The position numbers and the translations under genes are program-made. A stretch of DNA of 6,352 nt from a virus (Duplodnaviria; Heunggongvirae; Uroviricota; Caudoviricetes). The first letter of the stretch is position 1, and every line of letters begins with the position of its first letter. Below are positions 156 to 6,352 of this stretch, one piece after another. Location: IMG/VR virus record IMGVR_UViG_2690316285_000017; one strand, 5' to 3'. The notes beneath the pieces were generated by a model. That model worked only from the letters and a program-made list of their open reading frames with translations, was not told the DNA's origin and did not search any database.

Positions 156-492
156 GTTACTGAATAGTTACATGGATGTAGCTGATATTTGGCTTTTTTG
201 CCAAGGGGGTCACATAGCTGGTGTGACGGGTACTTAGCAGCTACAGACATCTGTCAGATATTTTTGAAGATTCGGGGAAGATGAGATTCAAAGAGGGCTA
301 GTCATTTTTTATAAAAATTTTCAGATTCTGAAAAGTTACTGTACAGATTTTGCACAATCCTACCAAACCTCATAGTTGATTCGATTAGAAGCTAATCTCA
401 TAGAAAGCTCTGTAGCGAGTTTTAACCCCATTTTTAGGGGTAACCTATAGGGATGTACTAACCACCTTAAAATAAAGGGGTAAAATCGCTTA

Positions 493-514
493 GAATGCGT
501 TACAGAGCGTCTGA
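493..514. repeat. Lone copy of the ~26 bp arm motif shared by the two inverted-repeat elements (agaatgcgttacagagcgtctg)
   Basis: Contains cgttacagagcg, a 12/12 match to the 3' arm of element B; its reverse complement cagacgctctgtaacgcattct matches the 5' arm cagacgctctcaatcgcattct at about 18 of 22 positions. Confidence 0.5.
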
Positions 515-847
515 GAAGCCATATTCACAGATTTTACTAAAACCTCAGACTTCTAAGTAGTCTTTTAACAGGAGGGGTTCCCCTATGGTCACATATCCCC
601 TCTCTTTCCACTAAGTAAGCCTTAGCAGCACCTAAGCAACAATTGACTAACAGATTCGGTAGAGTCTATCTCATAGGTCAACTTCATAAACTCAGAGCTA
701 AGTTACCTTGAAAGATTCTACCAAGAACTACACAGGTGTTATTTAGTCTGACTGTGAAGGGATATTTAACGGGAGAAGAGATACGATATAACCCGAAGGG
801 AGAGTATCATCTTAACAATTATCTTAAGAATAAAAACTGAAAAACTC

Positions 848-903
848 TTAACAGATAACCACCTAGAAAGAAGGGTTAACAGATAACCACCTAGAAAGAA
901 GGG
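848..903. repeat. Perfect tandem direct repeat, 2 x 28 bp (ttaacagataaccacctagaaagaaggg)
   Basis: Identical 28-mers at 848-875 and 876-903, head to tail, in a region with no ORF; flanked by further short direct repeats (atcttaa x2, aagtct x2) and the palindrome cctgttaaacagg at about 929-941. Confidence 0.9.
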
Positions 904-1309
904 AACGATAAGACCAGAGGTAGTGACCTGTTAAACAGGCTGTTTCAAAGTCTCTTAAAAGTCTGTTAAGTAAGGTCATGTGAACAATCTTACCATTTTG
1001 TCAATGCTTTTGTCTTTGACCTAAATCAATAAAATGTATCGTTTGATATGCTTTTAAACAAAATAGCTAAAAAATCTTTTTTTAGAGGGGCGCTTCGCTT
1101 GGGGTCACTATGAATGATTTTTCTCTCGCTAAGAGAGCGCTTACAGAGGTCTTTCAAATCTCAATAGCCAGCCGAGGAACACAGGAAACCGAGGGAAGAA
1201 AAACTATTGTGATTACCTTGAACAAGGTCTGTAAAGGTCGTTTAAGAGGTCGGTTAAGAAAGGAGCTTCCCTCTCTGGGGTTATCGCTCTTCTCCCGATT
1301 AGTGGGGCG

Positions 1310-1502
1310 GTTAAGAGGGCTTGAAGTTATCTGTGAAGGTACTGGACAGCCTTATATATTGGGTGATTACAACTCGTTGAAAAATAAGCATTTTTAGAAG
1401 TTACTGTTAAGGTTGCAGAGTTGTCTGTGAAGAGACTTGTCAGTTCTCTATATATAGCTAATTACAACTTATTGAAAAATAAGAACTTTTAGAAATTACT
1501 GT
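1310..1502. repeat. Imperfect tandem direct repeat, 2 x ~96 bp
   Basis: Unit 1 (1310-1407) and unit 2 (1406-1502) align end to end, e.g. gttaagagggcttgaagttatctgtgaagg...attacaactcgttgaaaaataagcatttttagaagttactgt versus gttaaggttgcagagttgtctgtgaagag...attacaacttattgaaaaataagaacttttagaaattactgt. Upstream at 1239-1317 are three short (g)gtcgKttaagaRg motifs. Confidence 0.8.
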
Positions 1503-1584
1503 CAGAGAGGTGAATGCTTGATAGATACGGCTTTCCAGTTCTGTCAAGCTATTTTTTAATAGATAGCACAAAATGCTAAAGACA

Positions 1585-1629
1585 CCCCTGTACCATAGAC
1601 TTCTATCTGTCATCTCGTGCAGGGGTTTT
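1585..1629. terminator. Candidate bidirectional terminator hairpin
   Basis: Stem cccctg (1585-1590) pairs with cagggg (1620-1625), followed by TTTT on the plus strand and lying 15 nt past the stop of the minus-strand ORF. The loop is long (about 29 nt), so this is weak. Confidence 0.3.
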
Positions 1630-1637
1630 GAAGGAGT

Positions 1638-1814
1638 TTAACGGGGGTCTGTGTGGTCGTTATCCTTAAGGTCAAGCGTCCATGTACGACCGAACAGTTT
1701 AAAGACAACAAGCACTCTGACGAGGACGTAGCGAAGTAGCAGGCCTGCAATCAGCCCAATACCTCCACCAGTCCATACATCAGGTGACCCCAGCTCAGGA
1801 GGGAGATTTACCAT
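1638..1814 (-). CDS. Small (58 aa) predicted membrane protein with one hydrophobic helix; an alternative upstream start at 1970 would give 110 aa
   Basis: ATG at 1814-1812 is preceded on the minus strand by cttacaAGGAaaactaATG. The product MVNLPPELGSPDVWTGGGIGLIAGLLLRYVLVRVLVVFKLFGRTWTLDLKDNDHTDPR has a single TM-like segment. The locally GC-richer sequence fits coding DNA. The same frame stays open to an ATG at 1970 that has its own SD (ggggagag) and an extended -10 upstream, but that extension runs through repeat element A. Confidence 0.4.
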   Translation of the reverse strand: MVNLPPELGSPDVWTGGGIGLIAGLLLRYVLVRVLVVFKLFGRTWTLDLKDNDHTDPR

Positions 1815-1828
1815 TAGTTTTCCTTGTA

Positions 1829-1926
1829 AGACGCTCTCAATCGCATTCTGACACAAAAAGTACCTGACCTTATGAGTTGACCTGAAGAGGTCGTTTAACT
1901 CGTTACAGGGCGATTGAAGAGGTCTG
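1829..1926. repeat. Inverted-repeat element A (~98 bp): ~26 bp imperfect-palindromic arms flanking a unique core
   Basis: 5' arm agacgctctcaatcgcattctgac (from 1829) and 3' arm cgttacagggcgattgaagaggtctg (1901-1926). The arms are near reverse complements, and both are near-identical to the arms of element B. Confidence 0.8.
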
Positions 1927-1992
1927 TGTGCAATGCAAAATATGCGACCAAATACATAGCCACGCCTCATATTTTACTCTCCCCATAAACCC

Positions 1993-2021
1993 ATTATACC
2001 ACAGATGTTACAAAAATGTTA
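1993..2021 (-). promoter_or_regulatory. Candidate minus-strand promoter with extended -10 (TGGTATAAT)
   Basis: The minus strand reads ctgTGgTATAATggg (TATAAT = plus 1998 to 1993, TG = plus 2001 to 2000). The -35 region is weak (taacat, plus 2016-2021). Predicted start near plus 1986, directly upstream of the SD/ATG at 1970 and of the leader running towards the ORF at 1814. Confidence 0.45.
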
Positions 2022-2028
2022 AAAATAC

Positions 2029-2058
2029 TTGACATTAGTCTTTGAAAATGCTAATATT
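2029..2058 (+). promoter_or_regulatory. Sigma70-type promoter P1 (TTGACA-N17-TAATAT)
   Basis: TTGACA at 2029-2034, a 17 nt spacer, TAATAT at 2052-2057; about 50 nt upstream of the ATG at 2109. Homologous to P2 over about 65 bp. Confidence 0.6.
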
Positions 2059-2108
2059 GTATATATAGGTTAACAGAATAATAACATCTTATGAGAGTCA
2101 GAACATGA

Positions 2109-3420: not shown

Positions 3421-3456
3421 TCCGAGACTTTAAGAGAAATTAGAAAAACAGCTTAT

Positions 3457-3576
3457 CAGACGCTCTCAATCGCATTCTAACGCAAAAAACTATCTTATTT
3501 TAGGGTGGGTAATACCACTACAGGCTACCCCTGAAAAAGACTGTTTAGCTCGTTACAGAGCGATTGAGGAGGTCTG
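3457..3576. repeat. Inverted-repeat element B (~120 bp), paralogous to element A
   Basis: 5' arm cagacgctctcaatcgcattctaacgc (from 3457) and 3' arm cgttacagagcgattgaggaggtctg (3551-3576). Intergenic between the gene ending at 3420 and the gene starting at 3597. The arms can form a stem of about 26 bp with about 4 mismatches. Confidence 0.8.
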
Positions 3577-3596: not shown

Positions 3597-3920
3597 ATGA
3601 ACGAATATGAATTACAGATTTTCATTGATAGCGACACTGCTATGATGGTGCAGGCTTTCGCTGATTCCGGTGTATCAATTGACCTTGATAAATTACTAAA
3701 GCTAATGGCTGAAAACTCAGAAGAAATTGAAGACTTTATTCAGGAAATTGAAACTGGTGAACCGCGTTTTATGTTTCCTGTTACCGACTCAAACATGAAG
3801 CGTCTTATTATCGAAGAAACGAACAAATACAGCGTTAGCCCTGAAAAATATCTCAAGGCGGCTATAGCAATTTTGTATAGCGATAATATTCTGGTGACGG
3901 ATTCGAAGGTGGTGCATTAA
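3597..3920 (+). CDS. Hypothetical acidic protein (107 aa)
   Basis: ATG at 3597 with SD aaggag 9 nt upstream. The track's TTG start at 3564 lies inside the 3' arm of element B and is considered unlikely. Confidence 0.6.
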   Translation: MNEYELQIFIDSDTAMMVQAFADSGVSIDLDKLLKLMAENSEEIEDFIQEIETGEPRFMFPVTDSNMKRLIIEETNKYSVSPEKYLKAAIAILYSDNILVTDSKVVH

Positions 3921-3985
3921 TGGAATTGGTGATTATCTGTTTTGTATTGATTGGTATGATTGCAGGTGCATCTATTAAAGTATAA
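3920..3985 (+). CDS. Candidate 21 aa hydrophobic micropeptide (MELVIICFVLIGMIAGASIKV), translationally coupled
   Basis: ATG overlaps the upstream TAA as TAATG (3918-3922); SD-like gaaggtgg 7 nt upstream; the product is almost entirely hydrophobic. Very short, so it could be fortuitous. Confidence 0.25.
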   Translation: MELVIICFVLIGMIAGASIKV

Positions 3986-4009
3986 ATGTTACCAATCTGT
4001 TAAAAGCTG

Positions 4010-4038
4010 TTGACAGACAACCTTGAGCATGACATAAT
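4010..4038 (+). promoter_or_regulatory. Sigma70-type promoter P2 (TTGACA-N17-CATAAT), a paralogue of P1
   Basis: TTGACA at 4010-4015, 17 nt spacer, CATAAT at 4033-4038. The upstream ATGTTAC-N5-TGTTAAAA elements and the downstream TGTATATAT are conserved with P1. Confidence 0.6.
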
Positions 4039-4045
4039 TGTATAT

Positions 4046-4192
4046 ATGGGGGAGAGCAATTCTCTCTTATTTTTTCTTTCAATAATCCGATGGATGGATA
4101 TTCTGAGTTTGAAAGGTGCAATGCTTTTCGTCCTAGCCTTTCAGGTTGGTCTGAGAGGCTATCTCAAAAAGTCTTTGTTCATTCATTATTGA
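4046..4192 (+). CDS. Candidate leaderless small hydrophobic protein (48 aa); alternatively this stretch is the body of a ~190 nt small RNA
   Basis: ATG at 4046-4048 lies 7-8 nt after the P2 -10, where transcription is expected to start (leaderless). Product MGESNSLLFFLSIIRWMDILSLKGAMLFVLAFQVGLRGYLKKSLFIHY. TGA at 4190-4192 is followed 16 nt later by an intrinsic terminator. Confidence 0.3.
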   Translation: MGESNSLLFFLSIIRWMDILSLKGAMLFVLAFQVGLRGYLKKSLFIHY

Positions 4193-4207
4193 ATCCTTTA
4201 CAGCTTT

Positions 4208-4235
4208 GCCCTAATCATGAGTTAGGGCTTTCTTT
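4208..4235 (+). terminator. Rho-independent terminator
   Basis: Stem GCCCTAA (4208-4214), 7 nt loop, TTAGGGC (4222-4228), then TTTCTTT (4229-4235). Confidence 0.6.
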
Positions 4236-4304
4236 AAGAGTTTTTAAACAGAGCTTTTAAAGAAAGTTTTCCTGAAACTTCGTTAACGTTATAAGCAAAC
4301 CTCC

Positions 4305-4339
4305 AAAGCCCTTCACAGATTATGTTTAGGGCTTTTCTT
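4305..4339 (+). terminator. Second terminator-like hairpin
   Basis: Stem aGCCCT (4307-4312) pairs with AGGGCt (4328-4333) across a 15 nt loop, followed by ttttctt. The stem resembles that of the hairpin at 4208-4235. Confidence 0.35.
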
Positions 4340-4408
4340 AATAGAGCATCTTTAATAAATCGTTAAGTCATCTTCTAAGTGTATTGGCGTTGAAGGTGCT
4401 CTATTAAG
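4337..4408. repeat. Perfect 12 bp inverted repeat (cttaatagagca ... tgctctattaag) separated by 48 bp
   Basis: Arms at 4337-4348 and 4397-4408, directly upstream of the SD/ATG of the gene at 4436; the first arm overlaps the U-tract of the preceding hairpin. Confidence 0.8.
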
Positions 4409-4435
4409 AAATAACCACACTTAGAGGAAATTATA

Positions 4436-5146
4436 ATGACAAACGATTTATATATTAACGGTAAAAAGGTTGATAGCTTCGGAGACTGGTCACCACAGGG
4501 TGAACATCCGCTACATACTATTCAGCGTCAAGAGCATGACAAGCGCATTGAGCTTGAGCAAGAGCTAAAGATGTCACCAAAGGTAATTTCCTTTGTGTCT
4601 CCTGAGCCTCAAGAAATGCCTGATATCTGCAAAACTGAAGCACTATTTGAGCTTGAGCGTGAATATTACCCAGCTTTAAAATCACAGCGTCTTAGACTTG
4701 ATGTCGCTTACGATGCTGTTAAGAACTTCGAAGAAACCTCGAAACCTTCAGAATATGATATTGCTTACGAGATTAAGTCAAACCCGTTTATCTATTATGA
4801 AGGAAACTTTAATGATGGTTTTGGTACAGCGATTGAAGACGTTCCTAAAGTTCTTCAAAGTATCCCTGAAGGGTTCCGGTTAATTGATGTCAGACAAGCA
4901 TTAAGGGGTTCTGGTCAATTTATTCTGATGACTGATAAAACAGATGAAGAGATTCTTCAGTTAGCTGAAGCTAATTTGACTAAGCATTATTCCGGTAAAC
5001 TGGATAAGTTAAAGCAAAAGCTTAAAAAAGAACTTGATACTATGAAAGAACTTGTTAGTGAATATGAGTCGCAGAAGAAGATTGCTTTGATGGCTGATAT
5101 TGAGCAGTTAACGAAGATTTCTCAGAAGTATAGCAAGGCTGTTTGA
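4436..5146 (+). CDS. Hypothetical protein (236 aa)
   Basis: SD gagga 8 nt upstream of the ATG; long ORF with no nested competitor of comparable quality; no motif recognised. Confidence 0.7.
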   Translation: MTNDLYINGKKVDSFGDWSPQGEHPLHTIQRQEHDKRIELEQELKMSPKVISFVSPEPQEMPDICKTEALFELEREYYPALKSQRLRLDVAYDAVKNFEETSKPSEYDIAYEIKSNPFIYYEGNFNDGFGTAIEDVPKVLQSIPEGFRLIDVRQALRGSGQFILMTDKTDEEILQLAEANLTKHYSGKLDKLKQKLKKELDTMKELVSEYESQKKIALMADIEQLTKISQKYSKAV

Positions 5147-5401: not shown

Positions 5402-5444
5402 GGGGAGAGATTATCGAGTGACATCGGTAGCTCTCCCTTTTTTT
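5402..5444 (+). terminator. Rho-independent terminator
   Basis: Stem gggagag (5403-5409) pairs with ctctccc (5431-5437), followed by TTTTTTT (5438-5444); lies 24 nt after the stop at 5378. Confidence 0.6.
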
Positions 5445-5534
5445 GTATGTGTGCTACGTGAAATCTGTAAAGCTAATACCCACACTGAAAAATAGAATTT
5501 ACGTACAACACGCTTAAAGAGGTGAAAAATATGA

Positions 5535-6335
5535 ATGGCACAATTTAAAGTTGATGATTTTCTGATTGAGTTAAGTTTTAACTCTCAGAAAGTTTTAAAA
5601 GGCTTGGAAAAAGCCGAGAAACAAACGATGCAGGTAGCATCACGAATTGAGAAGCGATTGAATAAGTCGTTTAGAGTTAATCCTACGCCTTTAAATGATT
5701 CTCTCAAACTAATGGAAAGAAATGTCGATAAAACTGTTTCCAAGATTGAGCAGCGTCTTAAAAACACTAGAGCGTTTAAGATTAAAACTGAAATTGAGGA
5801 TACTTTAAAGCCACTTAGACAACCAAGACAGCCACGAATTAGCGGAAGCAGAGCAATCACAGCAGCTTACTCAGCGAATATGAGCAAGCTTCGTGACTTT
5901 AATCCTATGCTTGAGAAGTATTTTAAAAGCCAGTATTACAGCTTAAGCAGTAAATCCAAGACACTTGGAAACGAAACTTTTAATCGTGAGTTAGCAAAGT
6001 TAAATCAGTCTCTTCGTGAAACACTTTCTAAGTTTAACAAGACCACCAGCAAAAATAATCACAGTGAAAATGCTTCAAATAGTCTGGATGTATTAGCTAC
6101 GAGTGCAATCAAAGCAGGTACAGCCATTTATAGTTTTCAGACAGCCTTAGAAGCTTACAGGCGGATTATGGAGGTTGGTCTGAAAAAAGAAGCATCACAA
6201 CGAGCGGCACAATTCGTTTTAGGTGATGAAGGTGCTAAACGAGCTACAGAATTTGTTAAGAATCTTGCTGATAGTAGTGGTGTAGACCAGATTGAAACAT
6301 TAAGCAGTTTTGCTAAGTTTGAAGTGGCACACTGA
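5535..6335 (+). CDS. Hypothetical protein (266 aa), K/S/T/N-rich and probably largely helical
   Basis: SD aagaggtg 9 nt upstream of the ATG; a long ORF that ends with TGA inside the window; no family recognised from sequence. Confidence 0.6.
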   Translation: MAQFKVDDFLIELSFNSQKVLKGLEKAEKQTMQVASRIEKRLNKSFRVNPTPLNDSLKLMERNVDKTVSKIEQRLKNTRAFKIKTEIEDTLKPLRQPRQPRISGSRAITAAYSANMSKLRDFNPMLEKYFKSQYYSLSSKSKTLGNETFNRELAKLNQSLRETLSKFNKTTSKNNHSENASNSLDVLATSAIKAGTAIYSFQTALEAYRRIMEVGLKKEASQRAAQFVLGDEGAKRATEFVKNLADSSGVDQIETLSSFAKFEVAH

Positions 6336-6352
6336 ATTTGGCCACCTGAACA

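What the first reader, a model, noticed from the sequence alone, without database searches (positions are those of the whole stretch)
4010..4235. Compact promoter, leaderless small ORF and terminator unit (or a ~190 nt sRNA)
P2 (4010-4038) is followed 7-8 nt later by an ATG (4046), i.e. at the expected transcription start. The 48 aa hydrophobic ORF ends at 4192, and a clean intrinsic terminator follows at 4208-4235. The whole unit is about 225 bp and sits between two operons. It is either a leaderless small membrane protein or a small regulatory RNA, and it uses the same promoter module as the main operon.
Basis: partly seen in the sequence, partly recalled or inferred. Interest (0 to 1): 0.6.

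Follow-up and report, generated by a model that had tools for sequence, protein, structure and literature searches.

The report
Structured leader RNA gating tail genes
The supposed small membrane-protein gene is really a conserved, folded non-coding RNA, made from a very strong promoter and stopped by terminators just ahead of the tail genes of a poorly known mobile element carried by about one in ten E. coli genomes, where it most likely gates those genes.

Summary
Only one of its two readings holds up.

**ORF.** Across 51 distinct homologues, the 5' ATG is present in 24. The ORF reads in frame through the conserved core in 3. No frame is consistently open.

**RNA.** The + strand RNA is conserved as structure:
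- a 5' hairpin;
- an invariant hairpin (GAAAGGU-GCAAU-GCUUUUC);
- a third hairpin with compensatory changes;
- an intrinsic terminator that comes in three interchangeable versions.

98.6% of pair cells are paired. G-U pairs number 239 against 3 A-C pairs. Rfam has no match.

**Context.** The unit lies in a roughly 11-kb integrative element with a large serine recombinase, a tape-measure gene and a Dit-like gene. The element is in 544 of 5426 complete E. coli genomes.
- P2 is the most conserved 60 nt locally.
- P2 is the only sigma-70-like promoter ahead of the 236-aa/69-aa/tape-measure/Dit module.
- A strongly covarying leader hairpin starts 3-4 nt after the last terminator, so read-through transcripts must exist.

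**Best reading (confidence about 0.5).** This is a lambda 6S/StxS-type terminated leader RNA that gates the tail module. A trans-acting role is possible. It is a new member of a known kind.

The parts
3986..4009 (+). Upstream promoter module ATGTTACCAATCTGTTAAAAGCTG: two TGTTA half-sites 11 bp apart, followed by an A-tract. P1 carries the same module.
   Evidence: Nearly invariant in 51 homologues. Shared with P1 in the window, L001 and L002. ATCTGTTAA is the reverse complement of the iteron core TTAACAGAT at 848-903 (I8). Its role as a regulator-binding site or UP-like element is inferred.
4010..4038 (+). Promoter P2: TTGACA, 17-nt spacer with TG extended -10, then CATAAT.
   Evidence: 11/12, TG present. 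The -35 is invariant in 51/51, the -10 is CATAAT in 45/51, and the TG is present in 50/51. The block 3981-4040 is the most conserved 60 nt of a 3.4-kb, 17-sequence alignment, at 0.94-0.95.
4045..4235 (+). The non-coding RNA: about 190 nt here and about 185-255 nt in homologues. The start is inferred from the -10 position and the end from terminator T1.
   Evidence: Minimum free energy -59.9 kcal/mol, z = -3.7. Consensus structure over 51 sequences. 98.6% of pair cells are paired, against 41-66% for slid controls, and 7 pairs show compensatory changes. G-U cells number 239 against 3 A-C cells, so the + strand is the folded one. The covariance model scores 83-106 bits on the + strand and 21-25 bits on the - strand, with one copy per element.
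4046..4070 (+). SL1, a 5'-terminal hairpin. In the window it is followed by a T-run (4071-4077), which makes it terminator-like.
   Evidence: Flagged. Energy -10.0 kcal/mol. Three of its pairs show compensatory changes. The T-run is missing in several variant groups, so the hairpin is the conserved feature and the T-run is not.
4046..4192 (+).
   Evidence: The 5' ATG is present in 24/51, is in frame through the core in 3/51, and no frame is consistently open.
4111..4129 (+). SL2, an invariant hairpin: GAAAGGU, loop GCAAU, GCUUUUC.
   Evidence: Identical in 50 of 51 sequences. In the one divergent sequence (L017, UGAGAGU-GCAAU-GCUUUCA), read by eye, two pairs change on both sides and pairing is kept. 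The automatic count does not show this, because MAFFT places a gap inside the 3' arm of L017.
4134..4161 (+). SL3, an 11-12-bp hairpin.
   Evidence: Energy -17.1 kcal/mol. Four pairs show compensatory changes and 99.4% of cells are paired.
4208..4235 (+). Intrinsic terminator T1.
   Evidence: The GCCCU/AGGGC stem is 100% paired in all sequences. Three different terminator versions occupy this position among homologues.
4305..4341 (+). Second intrinsic terminator T2: AAAGCCCU...AGGGCUUU followed by UUCUU.
   Evidence: Energy -14.0 kcal/mol. Conserved in the group of homologues that has two terminators.
4334..4411 (+). Long leader hairpin with a roughly 21-bp outer stem, immediately after T2. 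An alternative pairing sequesters the ribosome-binding site of the 236-aa gene.
   Evidence: The fold of 4236-4450 gives z = -7.4. The 18-bp helix is 98.5% paired, and 9 of its 18 pairs show compensatory changes in 18 sequences. Energy -33.9 kcal/mol. It being an RNase III-type substrate is inferred from the duplex length only.
4424..5146 (+). Ribosome-binding site and the 236-aa gene, the first gene of the downstream module (236 aa, 69 aa, tape measure, Dit-like).
   Evidence: No sigma-70-like promoter lies between the first terminator and this start codon in 18 of 18 homologues.

Best explanation
The unit is a non-coding RNA gene that doubles as the 5' leader of the element's tail-gene module.

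**Proposed mechanism.**
1. P2 is a near-consensus sigma-70 promoter that shares a regulatory module with P1.
2. It starts transcription at about 4045 and makes a folded RNA: 5' hairpin SL1, invariant hairpin SL2, and covarying hairpin SL3.
3. In the resting (integrated) state this RNA ends at intrinsic terminator T1, backed up by T2. The cell then accumulates a roughly 190-nt RNA and the genes downstream stay silent. Those genes are the 236-aa gene, the 69-aa gene, the tape-measure gene (itself preceded by a third terminator) and the Dit-like gene.
4. When the element is activated, probably by a helper or infecting phage or by one of its own early proteins, RNA polymerase that started at P2 or P1 is made terminator-resistant.
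5. It then reads through T1, T2 and T3. The invariant SL2/SL3 region is the likeliest RNA site where this modification is set up.
6. The read-through transcript carries the long covarying leader hairpin, which controls processing and/or translation of the 236-aa gene.
7. The short terminated RNA may also act in trans, as StxS does.

**Shown here.** Promoter, terminators, RNA structure, absence of coding, absence of another promoter, and the structure of the read-through leader.

**Inferred.** The transcription start, the efficiency of termination, the existence and identity of an antitermination factor, the role of SL2/SL3, and any trans target.
For: - **Not coding.** (see the observation check and interpretation sections).
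- **Conserved + strand RNA structure.**
- **Promoter conservation.** P2 is the most conserved stretch locally and is nearly invariant.
- **A terminator is always present.** Three unrelated versions are exchanged at the same place. The termination function is conserved rather than a particular sequence. This argues against a riboswitch-like alternative pairing with one specific terminator.
- **No other promoter.** No sigma-70-like promoter lies between the terminator(s) and the 236-aa start codon in 18/18 homologues.
- **Read-through transcripts must exist.** The leader helix beginning 3-4 nt after the T2 tail is 98.5% paired, with compensatory changes at 9 of 18 pairs. An RNA that crosses the terminators must therefore exist and be under selection.
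- **A third terminator.** A strong terminator (-21.9 kcal/mol, T7 run) sits between the 69-aa gene and the tape-measure gene. Several terminators inside one transcription unit is the pattern seen where antitermination is processive.
- **A tail module lies downstream.** TMP_3 and Dit_like domains. The tape-measure protein is 28-34% identical over its full length to those of Felix-O1-like myophages.
- **Precedent.** The late promoter PR' of Stx phages is always active and is terminated immediately downstream. Its short by-product RNA, StxS, is a functional sRNA (PMC7547250, abstract).
Against: - No antiterminator was recognised. None of the element's proteins matches Q, N, RfaH/NusG-like or any other annotated family in Pfam, PHROGs, NCBIfam, PADLOC or PDB sequences.
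- There is no conserved boxA-like motif.
- The -10-like TATATA sequence overlaps the start site rather than lying in the transcribed region, and it is not kept in all variants.
- No transcript data exist for either the short or the read-through RNA.
- The terminators have interrupted U-tracts (UUUCUUU). They could simply be leaky, in which case no antitermination factor is needed.
- A promoter of a non-sigma-70 type, specified by a helper phage, cannot be excluded by a consensus scan.
Confidence: 0.5

Rival explanations
1. It is an autonomous trans-acting small RNA. The roughly 190-nt transcript is the functional product, and its invariant SL2 region pairs with, or sequesters, a target in the host, a helper phage or the element. 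On this view the terminators are simply its 3' end, and the downstream genes are expressed by leakage or from an unrecognised promoter.
For: - It has the complete anatomy of an sRNA gene: a strong promoter, a protective 5' hairpin, conserved structure, and a Rho-independent terminator.
- The 20-nt core is identical in 50 of 51 sequences while its flanks diverge and recombine. This is expected for a seed or a protein-binding site.
- The RNA is kept unchanged next to downstream 236-aa proteins that are only 24-26% identical to each other, so its function does not depend on that protein's sequence.
- A satellite-encoded sRNA that regulates both satellite and phage genes is known: SviR of the Vibrio PLE (10.1101/2022.04.08.487710).
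Against: - No target was found. Duplex predictions against the nine translation-initiation regions of the window are not better than shuffles, with all z above -2.
- The only exact 10-mer complement in the window lies on a strand not known to be transcribed (1002-1011).
- No extended match exists in 50,697 phage records or in E. coli genomes outside the element itself.
- This reading alone does not explain why the downstream module has no promoter of its own.
- It also does not explain why a covarying leader helix abuts the terminator.
- It is compatible with the best explanation rather than exclusive of it.
Confidence: 0.25
2. It is a factor-independent, cis-acting antiterminator RNA of the HK022 put type. 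On this view the two adjacent hairpins SL2 and SL3 bind the polymerase that made them and make it read through T1, T2 and T3 constitutively. Control would then lie only at the promoters P1 and P2.
For: - Two adjacent conserved hairpins sit downstream of a strong promoter and upstream of several terminators.
- P1 and P2 share a likely operator module, so control at the promoter is plausible.
- No antiterminator protein is recognisable.
Against: - The covariance model of SL2-SL3 finds nothing in the HK022 genome, so there is no homology. The resemblance is only architectural and is recalled from established knowledge of put.
- If read-through were constitutive, three conserved terminators would have no obvious purpose.
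- The function cannot be tested here.
Confidence: 0.1
3. It encodes a small hydrophobic protein: either the reader's 48-aa leaderless ORF, or a shorter peptide from the invariant internal ATG at 4119.
For: - The ORF exists in the window.
- The internal ATG at 4119 is invariant and is preceded by AAGGUG.
Against: - The 5' ATG is absent in 27/51 homologues. The ORF reads in frame through the core in 3/51.
- The peptide from the internal ATG ranges from 5 to 58 aa and has frameshifts.
- No frame is consistently open.
- The AAGGUG lies only 2 nt from the ATG, and both are inside the SL2 stem-loop.
- The substitution pattern is that of paired RNA, with compensatory and G-U changes.
Confidence: 0.03
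4. The conservation reflects a DNA site rather than an RNA, for example a site for the element's recombinases, for replication or for packaging.
For: - The element has two serine recombinases and many repeats.
- SL3 is an imperfect palindrome.
Against: - Pairing tolerates G-T but not A-C: 239 cells against 3. This is strand-specific and meaningless for duplex DNA.
- The - strand scores about 80 bits lower with the covariance model.
- The region is framed by a conserved promoter and terminators in the matching orientation.
Confidence: 0.03

Closest known systems
Lambdoid late leader RNA: lambda 6S RNA from pR' to tR', and its Stx-phage form, the sRNA StxS (PMC7547250)
   Same: - A strong, always-on promoter is followed within about 200 nt by an intrinsic terminator, directly ahead of the late or structural genes.
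- A short RNA is the by-product in the resting state.
- The late genes need read-through.
- The by-product can itself be a regulator (StxS).
   Different: - No Q gene or other recognisable antiterminator sits upstream.
- No clear -10-like pause element lies in the transcribed region.
- The RNA is longer, with an invariant hairpin and covarying hairpins of its own.
- The host element is a roughly 11-kb island with only tape-measure and Dit-like tail genes, not a complete phage.
- There is no sequence similarity to any phage record.
Immunity RNAs of satellite P4 (CI RNA) and phages P1/P7 (c4): small structured RNAs cut from an operon leader that act on complementary sites in the same transcript
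   Same: A small structured RNA is encoded in the leader between a constitutive promoter and the genes it controls, in a small integrative element, and termination is the controlled step.
   Different: - No repeated complementary target sites for this RNA were found in the element.
- No Rfam family matches.
- The covariance model finds nothing in P4.
- This RNA has its own terminator, so it need not be released by processing.
- A different repeat pair in the same window (1823-1926 and 3452-3576) looks more like the P4/P1 arrangement.
HK022 put RNAs (cis-acting antiterminator RNAs)
   Same: Two neighbouring stem-loops are transcribed from a strong promoter, upstream of terminators that must be passed to reach later genes.
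   Different: - There is no sequence or structure match in HK022.
- Activity on RNA polymerase is untested.
- The resemblance is architectural only.
SviR, the sRNA of the Vibrio cholerae satellite PLE (10.1101/2022.04.08.487710)
   Same: An sRNA is encoded by a phage-parasitic island that has a large serine recombinase, and that sRNA regulates satellite and helper genes.
   Different: - There is no homology.
- No target or Hfq dependence is known here.
- That this E. coli element is a satellite at all is an inference from its gene content.

Membership tests
Leaderless small-protein gene | A start codon at the transcription start is conserved in homologues. | tested here: not met
   An ATG within the start region is present in 24/51 homologues. 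The closest relatives have ATA.
Leaderless small-protein gene | The reading frame is preserved: no frameshifts or stops, and a coding-type substitution pattern. | tested here: not met
   The ORF reads in frame through the core in 3/51. Indels of 1, 2, 4 and 28 nt occur. No frame is consistently open.
Independent sRNA gene (promoter, structured RNA, Rho-independent terminator) | A conserved promoter and a conserved intrinsic terminator in the same orientation. | tested here: met
Independent sRNA gene (promoter, structured RNA, Rho-independent terminator) | Secondary structure is maintained by compensatory changes. | tested here: met
   Seven pairs have changes on both sides. 98.6% of cells are paired, against 41-66% for slid controls. 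0/500 shuffles reach the observed covariation score.
Independent sRNA gene (promoter, structured RNA, Rho-independent terminator) | A discrete, abundant transcript of the predicted size. | not testable with these tools
   No expression data are available. A text search for the core sequence found no paper.
Trans-acting base-pairing sRNA | A conserved single-stranded seed with a complementary, conserved target. | tested here: inconclusive
   No in-element target scores better than shuffles. No extended complement exists in phage or E. coli collections. Short seeds against host or unknown helper genes cannot be excluded.
Lambdoid Q-dependent late leader (pR'-qut-tR') | A constitutive promoter, then a terminator within about 200 nt, directly upstream of the late or structural genes, which have no promoter of their own. 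| tested here: met
Lambdoid Q-dependent late leader (pR'-qut-tR') | A Q-family antiterminator gene upstream of the promoter. | tested here: not met
   No Q or other antiterminator family is hit by any element protein.
Lambdoid Q-dependent late leader (pR'-qut-tR') | A -10-like pause-inducing element in the initially transcribed region. | tested here: inconclusive
   TATATA(T/G) follows the -10 but overlaps the inferred start site, and it is replaced in some variants.
Lambdoid Q-dependent late leader (pR'-qut-tR') | Read-through of the terminator on induction. | not testable with these tools
   Supported only indirectly. A covarying leader helix begins 3-4 nt after the terminator tail.
Any Rfam family (including C4/CI-type phage immunity RNAs) | A match to the family covariance model. 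| tested here: not met
   No match at E up to 1 in the whole window, on either strand.
HK022 put RNA | Sequence or structure homology to putL/putR. | tested here: not met
   The model of SL2-SL3 finds nothing in the HK022 genome.
HK022 put RNA | Factor-independent antitermination in cis. | not testable with these tools
   This needs in vitro transcription.

The most novel reading that the evidence does not exclude
The invariant SL2/SL3 part of this RNA would be a new cis-acting antitermination site, nut-like or put-like but unrelated in sequence. Through it, a helper phage or an early protein of the element would switch on a tape-measure/Dit tail module. The element itself would be an undescribed family of E. 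coli phage satellites that supplies or subverts tail parts, possibly of Felix-O1-like virulent myophages, and that relies heavily on RNA-based control.
Probability: 0.2. Interest if true: 0.75.

Novelty: new member of a known kind. Interest (0 to 1): 0.45.

Why it matters
It removes a false small-protein candidate. In its place it defines a new structured RNA family, absent from Rfam, that is present in roughly 9% of complete E. coli genomes.

The RNA sits at the control point of a compact integrative element. That element carries only a tape-measure gene and a distal-tail gene between two serine recombinases. I found no description of such an element in the searchable literature.

If the gating model is right, the RNA and its terminators are the switch to study for how this element senses and exploits, or blocks, a phage. 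P2-RNA-terminator reporters would make that question directly testable.

If the short RNA also acts in trans, it would be a second example, after StxS, of an antitermination by-product used as a regulator.

Tried and rejected
- **Coding reading.** Rejected.
- **Rfam.** cmscan at E up to 1 found nothing.
- **Nucleotide and protein searches against phages.**
  - The unit and the 236-aa protein have no match among 50,697 phage records.
  - The 34-nt core has only chance 17-20-nt matches there.
  - Against 5426 E. coli genomes the core matches only the element itself.
- **Plasmids.** Only the IS911 end matches.
- **Target search.**
  - RNAduplex over the whole window was dominated by self-matches and long looped artefacts and was not informative.
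  - A 10-mer complement search gave about as many hits as expected by chance.
  - Duplex energies against nine translation-initiation regions were no better than shuffles.
- **Metagenome scan.** The 16-mer scan returned mostly chance hits from unrelated environments. Only nhmmer-confirmed loci were kept.
- **More distant relatives.** The genome-contig scan gave one locus. The profile scan of viral contigs gave only the same E. coli-type contigs.
- **Function of neighbouring proteins.** Pfam, PHROGs, NCBIfam, PADLOC and PDB-sequence searches gave only HNH, tape-measure, Dit-like and recombinase hits. The 'transposase' label that NCBI records give the 236-aa protein has no support from any profile.
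- **Excised circular copies.** No metagenome contig has a terminal overlap, and several carry host flanks.
- **Literature.** Searches for a described satellite with these genes, or for the core sequence, found nothing relevant.
- **Not done.** I did not attempt structure prediction of the neighbouring proteins, because only near-identical homologues could be supplied as an alignment.
Full report
**What the window is**

The last 36 bases (6317-6352) are an IS911 end. The rest matches only chromosomes of E. coli and its close relatives. Of 5426 complete E. coli genomes, 544 carry a related stretch, always chromosomal. Of these, 477 match the intergenic region 3921-4440.

In full copies this is an island of roughly 11 kb. 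It is inserted, for example, between yciI and tonB or between ymdF and wrbA. Its layout, in order:
- a variable left end, either a small serine recombinase or a 221-aa protein plus an HNH-AP2 protein;
- about 2 kb without annotated genes but full of repeats;
- promoter P1 and five small genes;
- the unit under study;
- a 236-aa gene and a 69-aa gene;
- a tape-measure gene (Pfam TMP_3);
- a Dit-like distal-tail gene;
- a large serine recombinase.

The tape-measure protein is 28-34% identical over its full length to those of Felix-O1-like virulent myophages. The other proteins hit no informative family. I found no description of this element in the searchable literature.

**Check of the observation**

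The promoter 4010-4038 is TTGACA, 17 nt, CATAAT, with a TG extended -10, scoring 11/12. The ATG is at 4046 and the 48-codon ORF ends at 4192. Terminator 4208-4235 has 8 pairs followed by a T-rich tail.

Consensus matches as such are not enriched in the window. Promoter-like sites number 20 against 15.0 +/- 3.4, and terminator-like sites 6 against 4.5 +/- 2.2. Their reality had to be shown by comparison.

I collected 51 distinct homologous copies from E. coli genomes, IMG/VR contigs and gut metagenomes. They were confirmed by nhmmer among many chance hits of a 16-mer scan. In these 51:
- the -35 is invariant;
- the -10 is CATAAT in 45;
- the TG is present in 50;
- a GCCCU/AGGGC hairpin with a T-rich tail is always present.

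In a 17-sequence alignment of 3.4 kb, the block 3981-4040 is the most conserved stretch (0.94-0.95), above every coding region. P1 and P2 do share a module. It consists of ATGTTAC-N5-TGTTAAAA upstream of the -35, parts of the spacer, and TTGTATATAT after the -10.

**The ORF is not a gene**

- The ATG at the start site is present in only 24 of 51 copies. The closest relative (95% identical) has ATA.
- Only 3 of 51 copies have a 5'-ATG ORF that reads in frame through the conserved core.
- The peptide that would start at the invariant internal ATG (4119) ranges from 5 to 58 residues because of frameshifts.
- Insertions and deletions of 1, 2, 4 and 28 nt separate the variants.
- No frame across the core is consistently open. 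The median open length is 12, 19 and 30 codons in the three frames.
- PGAP annotates no gene here in any relative inspected.

**The RNA is conserved as structure**

The window RNA (4044-4238) folds to -59.9 kcal/mol, z = -3.7 against shuffles. RNAalifold on the 51 sequences gives four elements.
- **SL1**, a hairpin at the very 5' end (4046-4070).
- **SL2** (4111-4129): GAAAGGU, loop GCAAU, GCUUUUC. It is identical in 50 of 51 sequences. In the one divergent sequence (L017), read by eye, two of its pairs change on both sides and still pair. MAFFT gaps the 3' arm of L017, so the automatic count does not register this.
- **SL3** (4134-4161).
- **The terminator.**

For these helices, 98.6% of cells are paired, against 41-66% when partners are slid by 1-3 columns. 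Seven pairs carry compensatory changes, three in SL1 and four in SL3. No shuffle out of 500 reaches the observed covariation score. The tool's own caveat applies: related sequences can beat shuffles without structure. The slid controls and the compensatory pairs are therefore the stronger part of the evidence.

The helices contain 239 G-U cells and only 3 A-C cells. So the + strand RNA is what folds, not the DNA or the - strand. A covariance model of SL2-SL3 scores 83-106 bits on the + strand and 21-25 bits on the - strand. It finds one copy per element. It finds nothing in 15 unrelated metagenome loci, HK022 or P4. Rfam has no match at E up to 1.

The RNA is mosaic:
- a 27-nt hairpin is inserted after the start site in some copies;
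- a 28-nt insert lies before SL2 in others;
- there are three linker types;
- there are three unrelated terminator versions.

**Context that bears on function**

1. In the window, T1 is followed by a second terminator, T2 (about 4305-4341, -14.0 kcal/mol). Other variants have a single, different terminator.
2. No sigma-70-like promoter lies between the first terminator and the 236-aa start codon in 18 of 18 homologues. P2, or P1 further upstream, must therefore drive the tail module. No terminator separates P1's operon from P2.
3. Three to four nucleotides after the T2 tail begins a long hairpin (4334-4411, -33.9 kcal/mol).
   - The 215-nt leader folds with z = -7.4.
   - The 18-bp helix is 98.5% paired, with compensatory changes at 9 of 18 pairs across two leader types.
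   - A selected RNA structure that abuts the terminator can only be made by transcription that passes the terminator.
   - An alternative pairing covers the ribosome-binding site: UCUUCUAAGU at 4372-4381 with ACUUAGAGGA at 4420-4429. This pairing also appears to co-vary, by eye.
4. A third strong terminator (about 5402-5438 plus a T7 run, -21.9 kcal/mol) precedes the tape-measure gene.

**Most likely mechanism**

The anatomy is that of a terminated late leader. A very strong promoter fires constitutively, or under the regulator it shares with P1. The transcript stops at T1/T2 and accumulates as a roughly 190-nt RNA stabilised by its 5' hairpin. The tail module is expressed only when polymerase is made terminator-resistant.

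Several terminators in one unit, together with interchangeable terminator sequences, point to processive antitermination rather than to an alternative pairing with one terminator. The invariant SL2 and its neighbour SL3 are the obvious candidates for the RNA site involved. I put this reading at about 0.5.

What is shown:
- the parts;
- their conservation;
- the absence of coding;
- the absence of another promoter;
- the read-through leader structure.

What is inferred:
- the start site;
- how efficiently the terminators stop polymerase;
- the antitermination step and its factor, for which no candidate protein was recognised;
- any role of SL2/SL3.

**Rivals**

- **Purely trans-acting sRNA (0.25).** This fits the anatomy and the invariant core, and it has a precedent in the PLE satellite sRNA SviR (10.1101/2022.04.08.487710). 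I found no target in the element, in phage records or in E. coli genomes. It also leaves the promoterless tail module unexplained. It can coexist with the leader model, as in StxS (PMC7547250).
- **put-type, factor-independent antiterminator (0.1).** This is architecturally possible, but there is no homology, and conserved terminators would then have little purpose.
- **Small protein (0.03) and DNA site (0.03).** The frame analysis contradicts the first. The strand-specific G-U pattern contradicts the second.

**Comparison with known systems**

The unit works most like the lambdoid pR'-6S-tR' arrangement and its Stx-phage version, StxS. It shares a leader location with the P4 CI and P1 c4 immunity RNAs, and a two-hairpin layout with HK022 put.

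It is not a member of any of these families. There is no Q gene, no Rfam hit, no match in P4 or HK022, and no complementary target repeats. It is a new RNA family of a known functional kind, in an element that itself appears undescribed.

**Verdict**

- The small-protein reading is refuted.
- The sRNA reading is supported but is better framed as a terminated leader gating a tail-gene module.
- Interest is moderate (0.45). The kind of device is familiar. The RNA family is new and widespread, and it sits at the control point of an unexplored, possibly phage-parasitic element.

Noticed in passing
window 3920-3985: A tiny hydrophobic ORF encodes 21 aa here (MELVIICFVLIGMIAGASIKV) and 25 aa in most relatives (e.g. 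MGLIIAWTLLGLFVGCWVGNTVNKN). Its ATG overlaps the stop of the 107-aa gene (TAATG). It is conserved as an open frame in all 18 relatives aligned and annotated in none.
   Followed up: partly
window 1993-2022 (- strand), with 1585-1625: A strong promoter on the - strand (TTAACA-18-TATAAT with TG, 11/12) lies back to back with P1 and is conserved in L002. Its leftward transcript would run about 370-400 nt to a bidirectional terminator-like hairpin at 1585-1625. It would cover a 110-codon ORF (1970..1638) that one gene caller calls in L151 but PGAP never annotates. The layout looks like a divergent-promoter switch.
   Followed up: partly
window 1823-1926, 3452-3576 and 490-556: A repeated module has two blocks, GACGCTCTCAATCGCATTCT and CTCGTTACAG(A/G)GCGATTGA(A/G)GAGGTCTG, which are also complementary to each other. 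Copy 1 lies just left of P1, where the leftward transcript would be antisense to it. Copy 2 lies just upstream of the 107-aa gene's ribosome-binding site. A partial inverted copy lies at 490-556. The leftward RNA would therefore be complementary to the operon mRNA at copy 2, an arrangement like the P4 CI or P1 c4 immunity RNAs. Copy 1 is in all relatives checked. Copy 2 is only in some (window, L002).
   Followed up: partly
window 848-903: Two perfect tandem 28-bp iterons, TTAACAGATAACCACCTAGAAAGAAGGG, sit here, and a third related copy of the core is at 459-478. TTAACAGAT is the reverse complement of ATCTGTTAA in the conserved module upstream of P2. GTTAA/GTTAC motifs recur through the 2-kb gene-free region. 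This may be a binding array for one DNA-binding protein, serving as an origin or a regulator site.
   Followed up: no
window 156-2108: About 1.9 kb has no gene annotated in any relative but is dense in direct and inverted repeats, for example the 42-nt and 35-nt repeats at 1325-1502. The function is unknown.
   Followed up: no
window 5402-5445: A strong terminator (GGGGAGAG...CUCUCCC plus a T7 run, -21.9 kcal/mol) lies between the 69-aa gene and the tape-measure gene. Downstream of it is a poorly conserved stretch (5451-5510) containing ATCTGTAAAGCT, which resembles the upstream module of P2.
   Followed up: partly
window 6317-6352: An IS911 (IS3 family) end truncates the tape-measure gene after about 260 codons, so this copy of the element is damaged.
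   Followed up: yes
window 4436-5146 and relatives: The 236-aa protein is labelled 'transposase' in hundreds of NCBI records, yet it hits no Pfam, NCBIfam, PHROG or PDB-sequence family. The label looks like propagated misannotation. Two versions of the protein only 24-26% identical to each other occupy the same slot behind the same RNA.
   Followed up: partly
L001, L002, L151-L154 (whole element): The element as a whole carries a large serine recombinase, TMP_3 and Dit_like tail genes, and no capsid, terminase or recognisable replication genes. It is about 11 kb, has at least two chromosomal insertion sites, and is present in 544 of 5426 complete E. coli genomes. It looks like an undescribed phage-satellite or tail-interference island. 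Its tape measure is distantly related to those of Felix-O1-like myophages. No circular copies were seen among metagenome contigs.
   Followed up: partly
window 1002-1011 versus 4119-4128: The 10-mer CAATGCTTTT of the invariant SL2 core recurs, in the same orientation, inside a conserved inverted repeat (TTGTCAATGCTTTTGTCTTTGACC) about 3 kb upstream in every relative that extends that far. If that region is transcribed leftward, its RNA would pair with SL2 over 10 nt. This may be coincidence.
   Followed up: partly
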